Source: Escherichia coli (GTDB taxonomy: Bacteria > Pseudomonadota > Gammaproteobacteria > Enterobacterales > Enterobacteriaceae). From it: a DNA stretch of 64,000 nt. The notes below the pieces were generated by a model that saw only the letters and a list, made by a program, of their open reading frames with translations, was not told the origin of the DNA and made no database searches. The DNA is taken from NCBI RefSeq assembly GCF_016903815.1, contig NZ_CP069973.1. One strand, written 5' to 3'. Positions 2,516-35,482 of this stretch are shown here, one piece after another; position 1 is the first letter of the stretch, and every line of letters starts with the position of its first letter. The position numbers and the translations under genes were made by a program.

Positions 2516-3034
2516 CTAAATGGATAATTGCATGTCAAGGCTTTTAACAGCAACATGCTTAACTTTCTCAACACGTTTACGCATTTTGAAAGCATTTTGC
2601 ATTGGCTGGTACAAAACAAATAACGACGCTTTCAGGATGTCGTCAATTTCGTTTCTACAGGTTGCCAGTGAAGGTTTTCTCCATCCCTCACCACCACGTC
2701 CACACATCTTGCGTGGCTTTGCAGTCGCGTGATAGTAGGATGCAATTGCTCGCTTAGATGAACCATGAGCGTAGTAGCTGAGGAGGATGCCAAATGCTTT
2801 CTTGTCAATGCACATGACGGAATCGACGACCTGAGAAATCAACATTCCATCATCATCATTACACATTGGCCTTGTCATAACTCTTCCCGGCTCTACGCTC
2901 TCCATGAACTTCGCTATTACGCTGCTCATGCGCTTTTCCAGACGACCTGAATAAACCCATGCGCCCCACAGTTCAAGCCAGCCATTCAGCCACTCGTGCT
3001 GCTCTTTGGTGAGGTTTAGTTCTCTTATGCTCAT
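2516..3034 (-). CDS. Late-gene antiterminator Q (QuuD-like family, not lambda Q)
   Basis: Position immediately upstream of the lysis cassette; WGAW and CxDDDG motifs resemble the recalled DLP12 QuuD-type Q. Confidence 0.6.
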   Translation of the reverse strand: MSIRELNLTKEQHEWLNGWLELWGAWVYSGRLEKRMSSVIAKFMESVEPGRVMTRPMCNDDDGMLISQVVDSVMCIDKKAFGILLSYYAHGSSKRAIASYYHATAKPRKMCGRGGEGWRKPSLATCRNEIDDILKASLFVLYQPMQNAFKMRKRVEKVKHVAVKSLDMQLSI

Positions 3035-3219
3035 CGTCTTCCCCTCTTGCCTTGTTTGACCATCAGGACGCCGTTAACTATTACGTGACGCTCGCCTTTG
3101 CTGTCTCGGTTGTACTTGAGCACTGTTCCTCTTGCGCAGGAAAGCATCCTTGCCACTTCGGTCTGATTTCCTCGTGTCTGGATAAGCAGTTCTGGTATCG
3201 TTTGAATTGTGGCGTTCAT
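3031..3219 (-). CDS. ninH: NinH-like small DNA-binding protein
   Basis: Motif GNQTEVARxLxCxRGTVxKY resembles recalled lambda NinH. Confidence 0.55.
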   Translation of the reverse strand: MNATIQTIPELLIQTRGNQTEVARMLSCARGTVLKYNRDSKGERHVIVNGVLMVKQGKRGRR

Positions 3220-3578
3220 GCGTTCTCCAGTTCGGTGATTTTTATTCCAAGCCGTCCGCCTGGTACTTTCACACCACGAATTACGCGAATGTCATCGAAT
3301 TGCTCGTCGTCTTCCGCAAATCCGGCGTGGATAAGGGAGTCGAGTAAACCTTTCAGGATGTTATCGAGGTCGCGGCGGCGGGAGTCTGGAACGTCTGCGA
3401 TGACTTTGATGCGGAGTCGTGATTTGGTGAAAATGTCTAACTTGAGTTGGCGGATGATTTGCTGAACGTCTTTTCGGTATTTCTGGCCTTTATCGCTGAT
3501 GTAGTATTGGCTTCCCCGTCTTCGCCAGTAGGTGTTCAGCGACGGTGGGTATGGAAGCACAAACTGATATTCGTTCAT
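3216..3578 (-). CDS. rusA: Holliday-junction resolvase RusA
   Basis: 120 aa with the RRRDLDN motif and overall resemblance to recalled RusA. Confidence 0.8.
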   Translation of the reverse strand: MNEYQFVLPYPPSLNTYWRRRGSQYYISDKGQKYRKDVQQIIRQLKLDIFTKSRLRIKVIADVPDSRRRDLDNILKGLLDSLIHAGFAEDDEQFDDIRVIRGVKVPGGRLGIKITELENA

Positions 3579-8729: not shown

Positions 8730-9023
8730 TCAGAACTCCATCTGGATTTGTTCAGAACGCTCGGTTGCCGCCGGGCGTTTTTTATTGGTGAGAATCGAAG
8801 CAACTTGTCGTGCCAATCGAGCCATATCGTCGTCAACGACGCCCCATTCAAGAACAGCAAGCAGCATTGAGAACTTTGGAATCCAGTCCCTCTTCCACCT
8901 GCTGATCTGCGACTTATCAACTCCTACAGCTTCCGCTGTCTTCTCAGTTCCAAGCATTGCGATTTTGTTAAGCAACGCACTCTCGATTCGTAGAGCCTCG
9001 TTGCGTTTGTTTGCACGAACCAT
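8730..9023 (-). CDS. cII: Transcriptional activator CII
   Basis: From the internal Met, [51 protein letters not shown]... matches recalled lambda CII. Confidence 0.85.
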
Positions 9024-9102
9024 ATGTAAGTATTTCCTTAGATAACAATTGATTGAATGTATGCAAATAAATGCATACACCATAGGTGTGGTTTAATTTG
9101 AT

Positions 9103-9135
9103 GCCCTTTTTCAGGGCTGGGATGTGTAAGAGCGG
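9103..9135 (-). promoter_or_regulatory. nutR (boxA CGCTCTTACAC and boxB GCCCTGAAAAAGGGC on the minus strand)
   Basis: Minus-strand sequence matches lambda nutR boxA/boxB between cro and cII. Confidence 0.7.
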
Positions 9136-9142
9136 AAATGTC

Positions 9143-10495
<1,353 letters not shown>

Positions 10496-10543
10496 TCCCC
10501 ACCTCAATCTCGATAACCAAAAACAAACTATTTTTCATTTAAA

Positions 10544-10612
10544 AACAATGGAGTTTGTTTTTCACGCCCCTTTTTACAATATTTCTTGTTTACAACATAC
10601 AATCTTTCTTGT
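10544..10612. promoter_or_regulatory. Left operator OL (three ACAA-N6-TTGT sites) with the pL region
   Basis: Sites at 10544-10557, 10576-10589 and 10599-10612 upstream of nutL and N. Confidence 0.6.
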
Positions 10613-10656
10613 AATTTTAAGCCATCAGCAGGACGCACTAACCACCATGAAGGTGA

Positions 10657-10687
10657 TGCTCTTAAAAATTAAGCCCTGAAGAAGGGC
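10657..10687 (+). promoter_or_regulatory. nutL (boxA GCTCTTAAAAA, boxB GCCCTGAAGAAGGGC)
   Basis: Sequence GATGCTCTTAAAAATTAAGCCCTGAAGAAGGGCAGC matches recalled lambda nutL. Confidence 0.8.
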
Positions 10688-10885
10688 AGCTTTCAAAGCA
10701 GAAGGCTTTGGGATTGGATGAATGAGCAGGCTGATGCTCGACCAATGTATAAACAGCGCTCATGGCAAGCAGTAACCAATCTGCGCCTCAAGACAGCGTC
10801 ACTGGTAGTGCGGGCGCTCTAACCAGTAAGCCGGGGTTCAGCGCCGGCCATCCAATCACCAAAGCTAACTGACAGGAGAATCCAG

Positions 10886-11218
10886 ATGGATGCACAAACA
10901 CGCCGCCGCGAACGTCGCGCAGAGAAACAGGCTCAATGGAAAGCAGCGAATCCCCTGTTGGTTGGGGTAAGCGCAAAACCAGTTAACCGCCCTATTCTCT
11001 CGCTGAATCGCAAACCGAAATCACGAGTAGAAAGCGCACTGAATCCGATAGACCTTACGGTGCTGGCTGAATACCACGAACAGATTGAAAGCAACCTGCA
11101 GCGTATTGAGCGCAAGAATCAGCGCACATGGTACAGCAAGCCACGCAGTGAAATGGGTGTGACTTGCTCAGGCCGCCAGAAGCAACGCGGAAAATCAATT
11201 CCAGCTTATTACGATTGA
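10886..11218 (+). CDS. N: Antitermination protein N
   Basis: MDAQTRRRERRAEKQAQWKAANPLLVGVSAKPVNRPILSLNRKPKSRVESALNPIDLTVLAEYH... matches recalled lambda N. Confidence 0.9.
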   Translation: MDAQTRRRERRAEKQAQWKAANPLLVGVSAKPVNRPILSLNRKPKSRVESALNPIDLTVLAEYHEQIESNLQRIERKNQRTWYSKPRSEMGVTCSGRQKQRGKSIPAYYD

Positions 11219-11226
11219 GGTGATAT

Positions 11227-11478
11227 ATGGAATTTCATGAAAGTGCGATTTGTGATTTTCGCGCTAACGCAAATTCAGTAAAACCACAGCCAATTGCAGT
11301 TCTTTTTAAAACAATGGGAGCGTGGGCTGTTTTATGCTTCGCCGCTGATGACACTGACGCAAGAATGGCAATAGGCCAAGAGATGGAGATGGATCCGACA
11401 AACGATGAATTCATAATTTATGGCGCTCCATCTAATTACTTACTTGATACCTGCAACATTTACAACAAGGCTGCCTGA
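11227..11478 (+). CDS. Hypothetical early-left protein
   Basis: 83-aa ORF directly after N with an SD-ATG context. Confidence 0.4.
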   Translation: MEFHESAICDFRANANSVKPQPIAVLFKTMGAWAVLCFAADDTDARMAIGQEMEMDPTNDEFIIYGAPSNYLLDTCNIYNKAA

Positions 11479-11537
11479 TGGTGGTCTTTATTTTTTAGCC
11501 GTAAATAATTTCATGCTTATTACAATCAAGGTGATAT

Positions 11538-11903
11538 ATGGAAGAACAAGCAAACAAGATTCTCGTAGAACTACTGCAAAAAGCCAGCAATGGAATAGAC
11601 GCGGCTGTTTCATTTAGCCAGGCACAGATTCCTGATGTCATCCATCAGCTTTTGATGTGGCACGCCGTATCATCAGCTGGAATTCAGGCTATCTGTGTAT
11701 TGGTGATTATAGCGTGTGTTTATCTGATGATTTTTGCATGGAATAAAGGAGATGATGCAGATATTGTTCTTTCATCACTACTTGTCACATCAGGAATAGC
11801 GATTATTTCTATTGTTGTTTTCTTCAATTATTTCGACTGGCTGAAAATTTGGCTTGCTCCAAAACTTTACCTTATCGAATATGCAGCATCATTGGTTAAG
11901 TAA
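11538..11903 (+). CDS. Small membrane protein (two predicted TM segments) in the sieB/ral slot
   Basis: 121 aa with two hydrophobic stretches (AICVLVIIACVYLMIFAW and VTSGIAIISIVVFFNYF). Confidence 0.5.
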   Translation: MEEQANKILVELLQKASNGIDAAVSFSQAQIPDVIHQLLMWHAVSSAGIQAICVLVIIACVYLMIFAWNKGDDADIVLSSLLVTSGIAIISIVVFFNYFDWLKIWLAPKLYLIEYAASLVK

Positions 11904-12092
11904 TTTCAGGACGCATAGCCGGCCTTTATTTTTGGCACAAACAACAGAATAAACACTGCACTGTGTATTCATTCCAACGAGTGGATACACGGAGCAATGT
12001 CGCTCGTAACTAAACAGGAGCCGACTTGTTCTGATTATTGGAAATCTTCTTTGCCCTCCAATGTGAGGGCAGTTTTTTTGACGGAGTAAACG

Positions 12093-12341
12093 ATGATAAA
12101 AACTGATTACCCTGCAGAGCTTAAACAAAAAGTAATAACAGCAATTAAATGCTCTTTTATCTCATGTCGTACAGATGAAGAACGATATGTCGTTGAGTGT
12201 GCAATTGTCGAGTTTCTCACAGCGATGGAATTTACCGCTGCAGAATCAATAGATGTATTAAAGCAATCAGACGGAAATGATATTGAAACGGATGATGTTA
12301 TTGACCGACTAATAAAATCATTCGAAGAAGAAATAGAGTAG
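12093..12341 (+). CDS. Hypothetical acidic protein
   Basis: 82-aa ORF; no motif recognised. Confidence 0.4.
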   Translation: MIKTDYPAELKQKVITAIKCSFISCRTDEERYVVECAIVEFLTAMEFTAAESIDVLKQSDGNDIETDDVIDRLIKSFEEEIE

Positions 12342-12424
12342 CCGCCTGAGCGCGGCTTTACCGCATACCAATAATGCTTCACGAGAGGCATTTTAGTTAT
12401 GCAATCAAATATAAGGAGTTACCC

Positions 12425-12559
12425 ATGATGCACTTTCAGCTCGCGGGTAGCGGCGTCATGTCCGCTTTCTACCCGCACGAATCTGAATTATCACGCCGAG
12501 TTAAACAATTAATCAGAGCAGCAAAGAAACAAATGGAGGCGTTATGCGCAATGAAATAG
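12425..12559 (+). CDS. CIII-like protein (putative FtsH inhibitor)
   Basis: From the internal Met, MMHFQLAGSGVMSAFYPHESELSRRVKQLIRAAKK follows the pattern of recalled lambda CIII (AGWPVAGCPSESLLERITRKLR). Confidence 0.5.
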   Translation: MMHFQLAGSGVMSAFYPHESELSRRVKQLIRAAKKQMEALCAMK

Positions 12560-12777
12560 CCATCAATCACCAGATGCTTCGTGCTGCACAGAACAAAGCA
12601 GTAATAGCCAGATTTATTGGTGATTCCAAAATGTGGCTTGAAGCAAATAAAGCGATGAAATCAGCTATCAACCTTCCGTGGTATCGCAGGAAATGAGTTT
12701 TACAGATAACTGGTCAGACGAAGAATTCATTCGTCAGATGAACAAAATGCTCAATCAGCACAAAGAACAGGAGAAAG

Positions 12778-13089
12778 ATGATGATTCTGACTCTGAATGA
12801 TAAGCGTGAAATATCGCAAATAATCGCAAGTTTTACTGATGAAGATTACGAACGAATCAACAGTGAAGTTGATCGCCTCTGCAAACGTTGCGACCCAATA
12901 AGCGAAATGCTTCGCTCATATAAACCAGATGAACACACTAAGGACGCTATCGACTGGCTGGAAGATGATGACTGTAACTATCAGGAAAAAGCCGCTGAAT
13001 GGTTCTGGGATGCAATAACCGAAAGAGTTAAGGCTGAATATGCCTTCGCAATATTCAAACGCAGACATATTTATGGAGAAGCTGCATGA
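12778..13089 (+). CDS. Hypothetical protein
   Basis: 103-aa ORF; stop overlaps the recT-like start. Confidence 0.4.
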   Translation: MMILTLNDKREISQIIASFTDEDYERINSEVDRLCKRCDPISEMLRSYKPDEHTKDAIDWLEDDDCNYQEKAAEWFWDAITERVKAEYAFAIFKRRHIYGEAA

Positions 13090-13997
13090 GCAATATCGTT
13101 GAATTCGTTAAACAGCAAGAGCAGTTATTCTGCGGAGCATTGACTGAACAGACGGTGACATGGGCTAAGGAAAGCCAGTTTGCAATTCAGTATTTCCAGA
13201 AAAATGATTACCTGGCTAAAACGGCACTGGCAAATCCAACCAGCGCACAGAACGCCATCATCAATGTTGCGGCGATCGGCATCACCTTAAACCCGGCCAG
13301 CAAACTGGCTTATCTGGTTCCTCGCGACGGCATGGTGTGCCTTGATATCAGTTATATGGGATTGCTCCATATTGCAATGGAGTCTGGTGTTATCTCATGG
13401 GGTCAGGCAAAACTTGTTCATGCTAACGATACCTATGAGTCAAACGGGCTTGATAAAGCACCAACCCATAAATACAACGCCTTCGGTGATCGTGGTGATA
13501 TCGTTGGCGTTTACTGCACAGTTAAGACGCCAGCAGGTGATTATCTAACGGAAGAGATGAGTCTGGCTGAAATTGAGGCTGTAAGGAAAACAAGCAAGGC
13601 GGCATTCAGCGATAAAGGACCATGGGTAAATCACTGGAATGAGATGGCGCGAAAGACGGTCGTAAAGCGTGCAAGCAAGTTTTGGCCTAAGGCATCACGT
13701 CTTGATAGTGCTATTCACGTACTAAACGAAGAAGAAGGTGTGTGGACTGAACCAGTTATGCCGCACAAATCAGAGGAAGATATCCGCGAAGATGAACGGA
13801 AACGCCAGCAGGAAATAACGGATAAAGCACAACTTCTTTGTGATGAAATGGCTCAGGCTGAAAACATGGATGATTTGAAGCGATATTTTGCAGAAGCATA
13901 TCGCCTGACATCTGGAATGAAATTGCAGCAGAACGTACAAGCCATTTACGCAGAATGCAAAGCGAAACTGGAGGTTGCCAGTGAGCAAACTATATGA
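13086..13997 (+). CDS. RecT-family single-strand annealing recombinase
   Basis: GPWVNHWNEMARKTVVKRASKFWP resembles the recalled RecT motif GPWVTHWEEMAKKTAIRR. Confidence 0.7.
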   Translation: MSNIVEFVKQQEQLFCGALTEQTVTWAKESQFAIQYFQKNDYLAKTALANPTSAQNAIINVAAIGITLNPASKLAYLVPRDGMVCLDISYMGLLHIAMESGVISWGQAKLVHANDTYESNGLDKAPTHKYNAFGDRGDIVGVYCTVKTPAGDYLTEEMSLAEIEAVRKTSKAAFSDKGPWVNHWNEMARKTVVKRASKFWPKASRLDSAIHVLNEEEGVWTEPVMPHKSEEDIREDERKRQQEITDKAQLLCDEMAQAENMDDLKRYFAEAYRLTSGMKLQQNVQAIYAECKAKLEVASEQTI

Positions 13998-14463
13998 AAT
14001 TGCCAATGAATACGCAAAATTGATGGATTCAGATTTAGAACCAGAGATGATTGCTGACACAATAGAAGGCATGGAAGGAGAATTTACCGATAAAATAGAG
14101 CAACTTCTTGCCATTATTAAAAATGAATCTGGTTATGCTGAACGCCTCAAGGAAGAGGCAAAGTCACTGAATGAGCGAGCCGCAGTAATTCAAAATAAGA
14201 TTGAGAGCATCAAATCATATATAGCGTCATCGCTTGAAATGGTTGGCAAGAAAAAGATTCGAGCAGGTATTCACCAGGTAACAATCCGCAAACCGTCAGA
14301 AACTGTAGAAATCATCGACTCAAGCGCCCTTCCTCCTGAATACGTTGAGTTTGAAACGACAATTAAAGCCGACAAACTGGCAATCAAACACCAACTAAAA
14401 GCAGGAATAAATATCCCCGGCGCTCAACTCAAAGTTGGGAAACCTTCACTTCTTATCAAATAA
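13975..14463 (+). CDS. Hypothetical protein coupled to the recombinase
   Basis: 162-aa helical ORF overlapping the recT-like stop. Confidence 0.4.
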   Translation: MPVSKLYEIANEYAKLMDSDLEPEMIADTIEGMEGEFTDKIEQLLAIIKNESGYAERLKEEAKSLNERAAVIQNKIESIKSYIASSLEMVGKKKIRAGIHQVTIRKPSETVEIIDSSALPPEYVEFETTIKADKLAIKHQLKAGINIPGAQLKVGKPSLLIK

Positions 14464-34153: not shown

Positions 34154-35482
34154 ATGGAAAACGCTAAAATGAACTCGCTCATCGCCCAGTATCCGTTGGT
34201 AAAGGATCTGGTTGCTCTTCAAGAAACCACCTGGTTTAATCCTGGCACGACCTCATTGGCTGAAGGTTTACCTTATGTTGGCCTGACCGAACAGGATGTT
34301 CAGGACGCCCATGCGCGCTTATCCCGTTTTGCAGCCTATCTGGCAAAAGCATTTCCTGAAACTGCTGCTACTGGGGGGATTATTGAATCAGAACTGGTTG
34401 CCATTCCGGCTATGCAAAAACGGCTGGAAAAGGAATATCAACAACCGATCAGCGGGCAACTGCTACTGAAAAAAGATAGCCATTTGCCCATTTCCGGCTC
34501 CATAAAAGCACGCGGCGGGATTTATGAAGTCCTGGCACATGCAGAAAAACTGGCTCTGGAAGCGGGGTTGCTGACGCTTGAAGATGACTACAGCAAACTG
34601 CTTTCTCCGGAGTTTAAACAGTTCTTTAGCCAATACAGCATTGCTGTGGGCTCAACCGGAAATCTGGGGTTATCAATCGGCATTATGAGCGCCCGCATTG
34701 GCTTTAAGGTGACAGTACATATGTCTGCTGATGCCCGGGCATGGAAAAAAGCGAAACTGCGCAGCCATGGCGTTACGGTCGTGGAATATGAGCAAGATTA
34801 TGGTGTTGCAGTCGAGGAAGGACGTAAAGCAGCGCAGTCTGACCCGAACTGTTTCTTTATTGATGACGAGAATTCCCGCACGTTGTTCCTTGGGTATTCC
34901 GTCGCTGGCCAGCGTCTTAAAGCGCAATTTGCCGAGCAAAGTCGTATTGTCGATGCTGATAACCCTCTGTTTGTCTATCTGCCGTGTGGTGTTGGCGGTG
35001 GTCCTGGTGGCGTCGCATTCGGGCTTAAACTGGCATTTGGCGATCATGTTCACTGCTTTTTTGCCGAACCAACGCACTCCCCTTGTATGCTGTTAGGCGT
35101 CCATACAGGATTACACGATCAGATTTCTGTTCAGGATATTGGTATCGACAACCTTACCGCAGCGGATGGCCTTGCAGTTGGTCGCGCATCAGGCTTTGTC
35201 GGGCGGGCAATGGAGCGTCTACTGGATGGCTTCTATACCCTTAGCGATCAAACCATGTATGACATGCTTGGCTGGCTGGCGCAGGAAGAAGGCATTCGTC
35301 TTGAACCTTCGGCACTGGCGGGTATGGCCGGGCCTCAGCGCGTGTGCGCATCAGTAAGTTACCAACAGATGCACGGTTTCAGCGCAGAACAACTGCGTAA
35401 TGCCACTCATCTGGTGTGGGCGACGGGAGGTGGAATGGTGCCGGAAGAAGAGATGGAGCAATATCTGGCAAAAGGCCGCTAA
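34154..35482 (+). CDS. dsdA: D-serine dehydratase
   Basis: 442 aa; [31 protein letters not shown]... matches recalled DsdA. Confidence 0.95.

What the first reader, a model, noticed from the sequence alone, without database searches (positions are those of the whole stretch)
11219..11903. Two moron-like genes after N with duplicated translation-initiation sequence; one is a small membrane protein
The 14-mer GGTGATATATGGAA, containing the Shine-Dalgarno and start codon, occurs at 11219-11232 and 11530-11543, starting consecutive ORFs. The second ORF encodes a 121-aa protein with two hydrophobic segments in the position where lambda has sieB/ral, so it may be an exclusion factor.
Basis: seen in the sequence. 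Interest (0 to 1): 0.3.

Follow-up and report, generated by a model that had tools for sequence, protein, structure and literature searches.

The report
Reused gene-junction sequence after phage N
The repeated 14 bases are real, but they are a standard "connector" (the tail of the phage N gene plus a ribosome-binding site and start codon) that lambda-like phages reuse to plug different small accessory genes in behind N, and the two genes it heads here are conserved proteins of unknown function, one of them a widespread phage membrane protein.

Summary
Observation confirmed and extended. GGTGATATATGGAA occurs only at 11219 and 11530 (expected 0.02). It is the 3' end of a 46-nt direct repeat (80% identical). 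Copy 1 is the real 3' end of gene N, whose stop codon lies inside the Shine-Dalgarno sequence. Copy 2 is a decayed, non-coding relic of an N 3' end.

The same 15-mer heads orf28/ral in phage lambda and at least five unrelated ORF families in other lambdoid phages. Homology breakpoints between phages pile up on it. It is therefore a mosaic boundary sequence of the kind described for HK620 and Sf6, not a feature special to this prophage.

ORF83 sits in ral's place and shares ral's last four codons and terminator. ORF121 is a separate cassette, flanked by a second short repeat of that terminator's tail. Each ORF occurs without the other elsewhere.

ORF83 belongs to a small conserved family of unknown function. 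ORF121 is the Sf6 gene 34 family (PHROG 3054), with about 2,400 clusters and no Pfam, PDB or defence-database match. It also occurs in early regions of virulent phages. Its N- and C-terminal parts are conserved, and its two-helix membrane hairpin is hypervariable.

No promoter of its own was found. A SieB-like, prophage-expressed exclusion role is not supported, and an early lytic membrane role is more likely. Function remains unproven.

The parts
10555..10582 (+). pL early-left promoter (434/Sf6 type), assigned by homology
   Evidence: Window 10500-10712 is 98.6% identical to Sf6 L001 2074-2286, where pL is annotated at 2129-2156.
10673..10687 (+). nutL boxB hairpin GCCCTGAAGAAGGGC
   Evidence: Read from the sequence. 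Its hairpin was picked up by the scan. It lies inside the stretch homologous to the annotated Sf6 nutL.
10886..11218 (+). Antitermination gene N (110 aa, Sf6-type C-terminus ...IPAYYD*)
   Evidence: Pfam N36 E=1.6e-26 and PHROG 271. PGAP names it 'antitermination protein N'. There are mosaic breakpoints inside its 3' part at 11132 and 11181.
11187..11232 (+). Boundary-sequence copy 1: the true 3' end of N, its stop codon TGA embedded in the SD (T-GAGGTGAT), a spacer, and ATGGAA of ORF83
   Evidence: The SD/anti-SD duplex is 8 bp, -12.9 kcal/mol. Homology with other phages ends or starts at 11215-11223.
11227..11478 (+). ORF83, a soluble 83-aa protein (PHROG 2471, unknown function) occupying the place of ral
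   Evidence: PHROG 2471 E=1.4e-61, full length. There are 19 homologue clusters at 70-99% identity in E. coli, Enterobacter, Citrobacter and Klebsiella, mostly full-length proteins of 82-87 aa, the rest fragments or longer calls. Changes among close alleles are mostly synonymous: 20 synonymous versus 8 non-synonymous codons over 6 loci. The AF2 model is unusable, pLDDT 58.
11464..11495 (+). 3' boundary shared with ral: the last codons AAC AAG GCT GCC TGA (NKAA*), then an intrinsic terminator (stem 11467-11488 and T-run)
   Evidence: Sf6 Ral ends ...QNNKAA* and its DNA is identical from these codons onward. The terminator is called. Breakpoints lie at 11462-11464 and 11495-11498.
11498..11543 (+). 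Boundary-sequence copy 2: a decayed, non-coding relic of an N 3' end (TAC AAT CAA instead of TAC GAT TGA), with an intact SD and ATGGAA of ORF121
   Evidence: The same relic follows the ral terminator in Sf6 and several IMG/VR loci. Homology with P22-like Salmonella phages begins exactly at 11528. The SD duplex is -9.9 kcal/mol.
11538..11903 (+). ORF121, a two-TM inner-membrane protein of the Sf6 gene 34 / PHROG 3054 family
   Evidence: PHROG 3054 E=3.5e-47. 575 homologous 90% clusters and 2,411 50% clusters with E<=1e-3. Conserved N-terminal (F26, P32, Q37-L-L-x-W41) and C-terminal (A107-P-K109 ... E114-Y-A) parts. AF2 pLDDT 89.9.
11649..11829 (+). Hypervariable centre of ORF121 (TM1-loop-TM2), an allelic swap region inside the gene
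   Evidence: Nucleotide homology with the 140- and 149-aa alleles stops at 11648 and resumes at 11830-11838. The alleles are shown. Family-wide, the loop is 8-74 aa.
11904..12089 (+). Conserved non-coding boundary block equivalent to Sf6 'bsq4', ending in the tL2A-type terminator (stem 12051-12072 and T-run). Its start (11921-11933, GGCCTTTATTTTT) repeats the tail of the ral-type terminator (11483-11495).
   Evidence: In the Sf6 record, bsq4 and tL2A map to window 11958-12070 and 12051-12079. About 40 loci are 94-97% identical here. See direct repeat D2 and alignment A5 and the terminator call.

Best explanation
The duplicated 14-mer is the conserved core of a lambdoid mosaic boundary sequence. 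The slot between N and the tL2 terminator is built from interchangeable gene cassettes. Each cassette starts with the last ~30 nt of N, a strong Shine-Dalgarno sequence and ATG GAA.

This prophage carries two cassettes in tandem.
- Cassette 1 is ORF83. It abuts the real N gene. N's UGA stop lies inside the SD, 8 nt before the ATG, so ORF83 is probably translated by ribosomes coming off N and is made together with N before the first terminator.
- Cassette 1 ends in the same four codons and hairpin terminator that end ral, so ORF83 is a straight replacement of orf28-ral.
- Cassette 2 is ORF121. It brought its own copy of the N 3' end. That copy no longer codes and has drifted (9 changes in 32 nt). 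The SD-ATG-GAA part is kept intact by selection for translation.
- Cassette 2 ends in a second, degenerate copy of the terminator tail that leads into the universal bsq4/tL2A block.

The tandem most likely arose by one illegitimate join of a ral-type terminator to a point about 40 nt inside N of an 'N-gene34' phage. This junction is already present in Sf6. Later homologous exchange at the two boundary sequences swapped ral for ORF83. The phage's own RecT-type recombinase can use such short, diverged homologies.

Shown: the repeat, its relic nature, its reuse before unrelated genes, the breakpoint pile-up, and the independent presence or absence of each cassette. Inferred: translational coupling, the order of events, and recombinase involvement.

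Both ORFs are pL-operon genes expressed on induction or infection. ORF83 would be immediate-early. ORF121 would be delayed-early, behind a terminator that needs N. ORF121 is a small inner-membrane protein whose conserved N- and C-terminal helices probably face the periplasm and whose variable loop probably faces the cytoplasm. My best guess is that it acts on the cell envelope early in lytic growth, for example by blocking secondary infection as T4 Imm does. This function is not demonstrated.
For: - Repeat statistics: the 14-mer is unique to these two sites. The 46-nt repeat is 80% identical. The upstream 32 nt match at 23/32, P=4e-8.
- Reuse: in IMG/VR lambdoid contigs the exact 15-mer AGGTGATATATGGAA heads five unrelated ORF families. 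These are MEFHESAI (ORF83), MEEQANKIL (ORF121 family), MEEEFEEF (28 aa), MEALVVERS (107 aa) and MERKFEIW (62 aa). It is almost always preceded by a true N 3' end of one of three types or by a decayed relic of one; in L039 the upstream sequence is degraded further.
- In lambda itself the 15-mer heads orf28, just upstream of ral, after such a relic.
- Breakpoints of homology with 50 loci cluster at 11215-11223, 11462-11498, 11528-11529 and 11908-11958/12076-12089.
- Homology to the P22-like phage SPN9CC (98.5%) starts exactly at 11528, after an antisense sieB.
- Independence of the cassettes: ORF83 occurs without ORF121 in L044, L047 and L007. ORF121-family genes directly follow N in L045, L038 and L037.
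- ORF83 and Ral share NKAA* plus the terminator.
- Strong SDs of -12.9 and -9.9 kcal/mol.
- Terminators at 11467-11488 and 12051-12072, and no + strand promoter.
- The boundary-sequence model is established in the literature: Susskind & Botstein 1978 and Clark et al. 2001, as cited in PMC3233612. The Sf6 GenBank record annotates bsq features. Homology-driven exchange by Rad52-like phage recombinases that tolerates divergence is shown in PMC3945230. A RecT gene lies at 13086-13997 in this prophage.
- ORF121 family: size and phage range, conservation pattern and topology clues. The N tail is acidic and poor in K/R, and K/R residues cluster after TM1. One homologue carries its own SD, ATG and a Sec signal peptide in front of the conserved N domain.
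Against: - The IMG/VR loci were retrieved with the exact 15-mer. Its perfect conservation among them is therefore by construction. Variants do exist: GAGGTTAGATATGGAA in HK633, and GAGGTGAGCCATG and GAGGTGAGATATGGAA in Sf6.
- About half of the 120 IMG/VR hits are chance matches in unrelated phages.
- Conservation of the core could reflect selection for translation alone. No recombination event at the 14-mer itself has been observed.
- Translational coupling to N is inferred from geometry only.
- The promoter scans are weak evidence. The consensus scan also missed pL.
- ORF121 topology rests on charge bias and a single signal-peptide-bearing homologue. The raw K+R count (N+C 5.1 versus loop 3.6) is ambiguous.
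- No functional evidence exists for either protein.
Confidence: 0.8

Rival explanations
1. ORF121 is a prophage-expressed superinfection-exclusion factor. On this view it is a functional substitute for SieB that protects the lysogen, and the two ORFs are classical morons.
For: The slot matches that of sieB/ral in lambda. ORF121 is a small inner-membrane protein, like the known exclusion proteins P22 SieA (PMC10883804) and T4 Imm (from memory). Three alleles share identical ends but have a swapped central region, a pattern expected for a specificity determinant in an arms race. The GC content is low.
Against: No sequence relation to SieB or to any defence model was found. ORF121 coexists with sieB in SPN9CC and its relatives. 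No promoter lies between the upstream terminator and the ORF, so in a repressed lysogen it should be silent. Homologues are common in early regions of obligately virulent phages such as phi92, the N4-like FSL SP-076, Vibrio phages, Bjorn and a Ralstonia jumbo phage. The most conserved parts are shared across phages with very different injection machines, which points to a host target or a general target.
Confidence: 0.12
2. The two 14-mers are similar only because both genes independently evolved an optimal ribosome-binding site. This is convergence, and the repeat has no evolutionary or recombinational meaning.
For: GAGGTGAT is an almost perfect anti-SD complement with ideal spacing. The same 15-mer turns up by chance at gene starts of unrelated phages in IMG/VR.
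Against: Similarity continues 32 nt upstream into sequence with no initiation role (23/32, P=4e-8). That upstream sequence is recognisably the coding 3' end of N with its frame destroyed. Homology breakpoints coincide with the motif.
Confidence: 0.04
3. The repeat is a recent local tandem duplication within this prophage, followed by divergence of the two downstream genes.
For: It is a direct repeat 311 bp apart, heading two adjacent ORFs that both start with Met-Glu.
Against: The two ORFs share no similarity beyond the first two codons. Each copy with its gene occurs alone in other phages. Copy 2 with its relic is about 95% identical in Sf6, where it follows ral rather than ORF83.
Confidence: 0.02

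Closest known systems
Lambdoid 'boundary sequences' (bsq) at mosaic junctions: Clark et al. 2001 (HK620), Casjens et al. 2004 (Sf6), after Susskind & Botstein 1978
   Same: Both are short sequences conserved between otherwise unrelated gene modules, lying at gene borders and coinciding with homology breakpoints. Window 11958-12070 is the direct equivalent of Sf6 bsq4.
   Different: The N-3'-end/SD/ATGGAA junction is not among the seven bsq features annotated in the Sf6 record. It doubles as a translation-initiation region, and at copy 1 it overlaps the N stop codon. Copies away from N survive as decaying relics. The primary papers could not be read here, so I cannot say whether they discuss this junction in their text.
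Phage lambda orf28-ral translation start
   Same: The exact 15-mer AGGTGATATATGGAA precedes lambda orf28, after a relic of an N 3' end. Lambda ral ends in ...AAAGCTGCCTGA followed by the same terminator and the bsq4-like sequence.
   Different: In the window the motif heads ORF83 and ORF121 instead of orf28/ral. Neither ral nor sieB is present.
Morons, i.e. extra genes inserted between conserved phage genes, such as HK97 gp15 (definition recalled from Juhala et al. 2000 and Cumby et al. 2012, from memory)
   Same: These are extra genes, present or absent between the same neighbours in related phages. They are mildly AT-rich, and ORF83 has its own terminator.
   Different: No promoter of their own was detected. 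They are embedded in the pL operon and probably depend on pL and N, so prophage expression, the hallmark of morons, is not expected.
Sf6 gene 34 protein / PHROG 3054
   Same: ORF121 is a full-length member (E=3.5e-47). Its first 37 and last ~25 codons are 91-95% identical to Sf6 gene 34 at the DNA level.
   Different: The central TM1-loop-TM2 part is a different allele (121 aa versus 140 aa). The family has no assigned function anywhere.
Small inner-membrane superinfection-exclusion proteins: P22 SieA (PMC10883804); T4 Imm (from memory); lambda/P22 SieB
   Same: ORF121 is a small helical inner-membrane protein encoded by a phage, in or near the classical exclusion slot. The early-gene context in virulent phages resembles T4 imm.
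   Different: There is no sequence or fold relation. SieA has three TM helices, is expressed from the prophage and targets only P22-like ejection proteins. The ORF121 family spans phages with unrelated injection systems.

Membership tests
Lambdoid mosaic boundary sequence | A short sequence conserved between phages whose flanking genes on at least one side are unrelated | tested here: met
   The same 15-mer precedes 5 unrelated ORF families and follows 3 N-end types plus several relics.
Lambdoid mosaic boundary sequence | Homology breakpoints between genomes coincide with it | tested here: met
   HSP ends cluster at 11215-11223 and 11528-11529.
Lambdoid mosaic boundary sequence | It actually serves as a recombination site for module exchange | not testable with these tools
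   This needs a cross between marked phages with sequencing of the junctions. Only the outcome pattern is seen here.
Moron | An extra gene present between neighbours that are adjacent in related phages | tested here: met
   N-ORF121 is adjacent in L045, L038 and L037. N-ORF83-terminator-bsq4 occurs without ORF121 in L044, L047 and L007.
Moron | Own promoter allowing expression from the repressed prophage | tested here: not met
   No + strand sigma-70 match in 10400-12700. The best relaxed match before ORF121 is 8/12 with a poor -35. The scans are insensitive and also missed pL.
Moron | Own transcription terminator | tested here: met
   There is a terminator at 11467-11488 after ORF83. ORF121 is followed 150 nt later by the shared tL2A-type terminator.
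SieB (Pfam PF14163) | Sequence match to the SieB family | tested here: not met
   No Pfam hit at E<=1 for ORF83 or ORF121, and none for 66 family members.
SieB (Pfam PF14163) | Encoded antisense to the pL operon with its own promoter, as annotated in lambda and SPN9CC | tested here: not met
   Both ORFs are on the pL-sense strand. sieB is on the opposite strand in lambda and SPN9CC.
Ral (restriction alleviation) | Sequence similarity to Ral | tested here: not met
   ORF83 shares only the last four residues NKAA with Sf6 Ral. It belongs to a different PHROG (2471).
Sf6 gene 34 / PHROG 3054 | Full-length profile match | tested here: met
   E=3.5e-47 over residues 1-121. All 66 aligned homologues hit PHROG 3054.
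Sf6 gene 34 / PHROG 3054 | Conserved N-terminal motif (F..AQIPDV..QLL.W) and C-terminal APK...EYA motif around two TM helices | tested here: met
   Alignment A2: invariant F26, A107, P108 and K109; nearly invariant P32, Q37, L38, L39, W41, L112, E114, Y115 and A116.
Known anti-phage defence systems (PADLOC) | Match to a defence-protein model | tested here: not met
   The only hit is 12 bits, E=0.026, to a generic '2TM effector' model over the hydrophobic region.

The most novel reading that the evidence does not exclude
The ORF121 / Sf6 gp34 family has about 2,400 clusters at 50% identity and no Pfam, PDB or functional annotation. It is present in temperate lambdoid and P22-like phages and in early regions of virulent phi92-like, N4-like, Vibrio, Pseudomonas and jumbo phages. 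It could be a general, previously unrecognised early phage envelope factor. Its conserved, probably periplasmic N- and C-terminal helices would act on a conserved host envelope component. Possible effects are closing the cell to further phage DNA entry or protecting the membrane during infection. The swappable hairpin and loop would then tune specificity.
Probability: 0.2. Interest if true: 0.6.

Novelty: new member of a known kind. Interest (0 to 1): 0.28.

Why it matters
The repeat gives a clean, readable example of how lambdoid phages shuffle accessory genes behind N. Each cassette carries a piece of N's 3' end and a ready-made ribosome-binding site, so any cassette can be expressed wherever it lands. 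The leftover relics record the order of past joins.

This has practical use for annotation. The HK633 record mis-calls both ORFs. The motif could also be used to mine this slot for accessory and possibly anti-defence genes.

The biology of the two proteins remains open. ORF121 belongs to a very large phage membrane-protein family with no known function, so a single phenotype would annotate thousands of genes.

Tried and rejected
- Pfam, NCBIfam, PADLOC and PDB sequence searches of ORF83 and ORF121, and of 66 ORF121 homologues, gave nothing meaningful.
- Foldseek of the ORF121 model against PDB gave only generic helical hairpins (best E=1.7). Against BFVD it found only uncharacterised family members. 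The afdb50 library was not available.
- The ORF83 AlphaFold model was too poor (pLDDT 58.5) to search with.
- Longer family members were checked for fused domains, and none were found.
- An Rfam scan of 9000-14000 gave no hits, so the conserved bsq4-like non-coding block matches no known RNA family.
- The promoter scans were negative but insensitive.
- The primary papers on boundary sequences (Clark 2001, Casjens 2004) are not held. The concept is therefore cited through PMC3233612 and the Sf6 GenBank features.
- Literature searches for functional work on Sf6 gene 34 or on early-left-operon membrane proteins found nothing relevant.
- A simple K+R count for topology was ambiguous. The flank-based count and the signal-peptide homologue were more informative.
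- Recent tandem duplication and pure RBS convergence were both considered and rejected (see rival explanations).
Full report
**Setting**

The window is a lambdoid prophage. Over the 1,551 bases compared (window 10850-12400) it is identical to the chromosomes of three human E. coli isolates, strains 2779, 5283 and 98224, and the copy in strain 2779 is identical over 10500-12500. The early-left operon runs on the + strand, in this order:
- a 434-type repressor, 9462-10094;
- a small secreted-looking ORF, 10091-10495;
- pL (about 10555-10582, by 98.6% homology to the annotated Sf6 region);
- nutL boxB, 10673-10687;
- N, 10886-11218 (Pfam N36, E=1.6e-26);
- the two ORFs of the finding;
- a conserved non-coding block with a terminator;
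- an 82-aa ORF of a PHROG labelled anti-restriction, then cIII/kil-like ORFs and recT.

GGTGATATATGGAA occurs only at 11219 and 11530, even with one mismatch allowed. The chance expectation is 0.02. The two sites align over 46 nt at 80% identity, 11187-11232 versus 11498-11543. The 32 nt upstream of the 14-mer match at 23 of 32 positions, P=4e-8 for this anchored comparison. Nothing aligns downstream of ATGGAA.

Copy 1 is the real end of N: ...CCA GCT TAT TAC GAT TGA. The stop codon forms the first bases of the Shine-Dalgarno sequence GAGGTGAT.

Copy 2 reads ...CAT GCT TAT TAC AAT CAA GGTGAT. It is the same N 3' end with the frame and stop destroyed, lying in non-coding DNA after a terminator. 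The repeat is therefore homology, not convergence on a good ribosome-binding site.

**What the repeat is**

I scanned IMG/VR for the 15-mer AGGTGATATATGGAA and sorted the hits by what precedes and follows them. About half are chance matches in unrelated phages. The rest are lambdoid contigs, and in these the motif heads five unrelated ORF families:
- ORF83;
- the ORF121 family;
- a 28-aa acidic ORF;
- a 107-aa ORF;
- a 62-aa ORF.

In these contigs the motif is almost always preceded by a genuine N 3' end or by a decayed relic of one. In one contig (L039) the upstream sequence is degraded further and no longer ends in either form.
- Three genuine N-end types occur: ...AAACCACTTATTTGA, ...GCTTATTACGATTGA and ...TCGATTCCATTAATTTGA.
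- Relics occur after Sf6 gene 36, after the antisense sieB of P22-like phages, and after the ral terminator.

Phage lambda itself has the exact 15-mer in front of orf28, the 28-aa ORF that overlaps the start of ral. There it is preceded by such a relic, just beyond sieB.

Blastn of window 10500-12700 against all fetched loci shows that homology ends are not scattered. They pile up at these positions:
- 11215-11223 (copy 1);
- 11462-11464 and 11495-11498 (the ral 3' end and terminator);
- 11528-11529 (copy 2);
- 11648 and 11830-11838 (inside ORF121);
- 11908-11958 and 12076-12089 (the bsq4/tL2A block).

The P22-like Salmonella phage SPN9CC is 98.5% identical from exactly 11528 to 12076. Upstream of that point it has an antisense sieB instead.

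This is the behaviour of the 'boundary sequences' proposed for lambdoid mosaicism. The idea goes back to Susskind & Botstein 1978 and Clark et al. 2001, as summarised in PMC3233612. Seven such features, bsq1-7, are annotated in the Sf6 GenBank record. Window 11958-12070 corresponds to Sf6 bsq4, and 12051-12079 to its tL2A terminator. The N-end junction is not one of the seven annotated features. I could not read the primary papers.

**Cassette anatomy**

ORF83 ends ...NKAA*. Sf6 Ral ends ...QNNKAA*. The DNA is identical from those four codons through a hairpin terminator (11467-11488 plus T-run) and onward to ORF121. ORF83 therefore sits precisely in ral's place, between the same left and right boundaries.

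A second short direct repeat brackets ORF121: GGTCTTTATTTTT at 11483 and GGCCTTTATTTTT at 11921. In a five-way alignment, the lambda sequence after ral equals the left part of 'after ORF83' joined to the right part of 'after ORF121'.

The region therefore reads: [N 3' end-SD-ORF83-terminator] [N 3' relic-SD-ORF121-terminator tail] bsq4/tL2A.

Each cassette occurs alone elsewhere. ORF83 is followed directly by bsq4 in L044, L047 and L007. ORF121-family genes follow N directly in L045, L038 and L037.

The simplest history has two steps. First, one illegitimate join of a ral-type terminator to a point about 40 nt inside N of an N-gene34 phage. This junction already exists in Sf6 at about 95% identity. 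Second, homologous replacement of orf28-ral by ORF83 at the two boundaries.

Recombination of this kind, on short and diverged homology, has been demonstrated for Rad52-like phage recombinases (PMC3945230). This prophage encodes RecT (13086-13997). The order of events and the enzyme involved are inferences.

**How it probably works for expression**

Both SDs are strong: 8 bp at -12.9 kcal/mol and 7 bp at -9.9 kcal/mol against the 16S 3' end (sequence from memory). The spacing is 6 nt from GAGG to the ATG.
- At copy 1 the N stop codon is 8 nt from the ORF83 start, so coupling to N translation is likely. This is inferred.
- ORF83 precedes the first terminator and should be made with N.
- ORF121 lies behind that terminator and should need N antitermination.
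- I found no convincing promoter on the + strand before either ORF. These scans are weak, however, and the consensus scan also missed pL.

**The proteins**

ORF83 (PHROG 2471, E=1.4e-61):
- It has 19 homologue clusters in E. coli, Enterobacter, Citrobacter and Klebsiella at 70-99% identity. Most are full-length proteins of 82-87 aa, and the rest are fragments or longer calls.
- Changes among close alleles are mostly synonymous.
- It is a real gene of unknown function. Its structure prediction was too poor to use.

ORF121 (PHROG 3054, E=3.5e-47) is the Sf6 gene 34 family:
- It has 575 clusters at 90% identity and 2,411 at 50% identity with E<=1e-3.
- It has no Pfam, NCBIfam, PADLOC or PDB relative.
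- The AlphaFold model is confident (pLDDT 89.9) and all-helical. Its only structural matches are uncharacterised family members.

The family is not restricted to prophages. Full-length homologues sit among early genes of phi92-like myoviruses, the N4-like phage FSL SP-076 (near the RNA polymerase II genes), many Vibrio phages, Pseudomonas phage Bjorn, and a Ralstonia jumbo phage with three matching places.

Conservation is concentrated in two parts:
- the first ~45 residues (F26, P32, Q37-L-L-x-W41);
- the last ~22 residues (invariant A107-P-K109, then L112, E114, Y115, A116).

The two TM helices and the loop vary freely, and the loop ranges from 8 to 74 residues. Within lambdoid phages there are three alleles, of 121, 140 and 149 aa. 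They share nearly identical ends at the DNA level but have swapped centres.

**Topology**

The N tail is acidic (net about -3.3) and almost free of K/R near TM1. K/R residues cluster just after TM1. One homologue (P0279, locus L131) has its own SD and ATG and a typical Sec signal peptide, MKKILLIAALCLPMFSGFADA|AEE, in front of the conserved N domain.

I therefore favour N-out/C-out: conserved parts in the periplasm and the variable loop in the cytoplasm. This is not proven. A plain K+R count is ambiguous.

**Exclusion factor?**

Points against a SieB-like, prophage-expressed role:
- no similarity to SieB or to any defence model;
- coexistence with sieB in P22-like phages;
- position inside the repressed pL operon behind a terminator;
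- abundance in virulent phages.

An early-lytic envelope function, including T4 Imm-style exclusion, is compatible with all the data, but it is a guess. I put it at about 0.3 within the space of possible functions. Both ORFs are conserved.

**Verdict**

The repeat is real and non-random. It is explained as a member of a known class, the lambdoid boundary sequence, here one that doubles as a portable translation start derived from the end of N. The two ORFs are exchangeable accessory cassettes of unknown function.

The finding is ordinary for a phage genomicist, hence the modest interest score. The residual novelty lies in the size and breadth of the uncharacterised ORF121 family.

Noticed in passing
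window 10091-10495 (+): A 134-aa ORF (Sf6 gene 38 homologue, PHROG 2651, unknown function) starts at an ATG that overlaps the cI stop codon (ATGA). Its N-terminus looks like a signal peptide ([20 protein letters not shown]). It lies in the rexAB position and is probably co-transcribed with the repressor in the lysogen. That makes it a better a priori candidate for a prophage-expressed exclusion or defence factor than ORF121.
   Followed up: partly
window 11904-12089 (+): A non-coding block of about 180 nt is 94-97% identical in about 40 lambdoid loci regardless of the flanking genes. It equals Sf6 'bsq4' plus the tL2A terminator. It matches no Rfam family. Why so long a non-coding stretch is so well conserved is unexplained; an sRNA, a processing site or a recombination target are possibilities.
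   Followed up: partly
window 11649-11829 (inside ORF121): There is an intragenic mosaic. The first 37 and last ~25 codons are 91-97% identical at the DNA level to the 140- and 149-aa alleles, but the TM1-loop-TM2 centre is unrelated in sequence and length. Long-loop family members share an S-W-T-R-(Y/F)...T-S..Y-D motif in the loop.
   Followed up: partly
window 11132-11218 (3' part of N): N itself is mosaic. Homology to many loci starts or stops at 11132 and 11181, so at least three alternative N C-termini circulate (...IPAYYD, ...SKPLI, ...KSIPLI).
   Followed up: no
L130 (lambda NC_001416) 34271-34357; many IMG/VR loci: Lambda orf28 encodes a 28-aa, extremely acidic peptide (MEEEFEEFEEHPQDVMEQYQDYPYDYDY) whose end overlaps the ral start. 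It is conserved almost unchanged in more than 25 loci, which suggests a leader ORF translationally coupled to ral.
   Followed up: no
L002 (HK633 JQ086377) 2865-3540: HK633 has a 1-nt deletion at the ORF83 stop codon, which gives the annotated 129-aa read-through ORF. Its ORF121 homologue is intact at 121 aa but is annotated only as a 58-aa fragment.
   Followed up: yes
window 12093-12341 (+): An 82-aa acidic ORF directly after tL2A is a full-length match to PHROG 14587, which is labelled 'anti-restriction protein' (E=2.2e-48). With ral absent, it may be this prophage's restriction-evasion gene.
   Followed up: no
Ralstonia phage RsoM2USA MG752970 (H98): This jumbo phage has three separate places matching ORF121, which suggests paralogous expansion of the family in one genome.
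   Followed up: no
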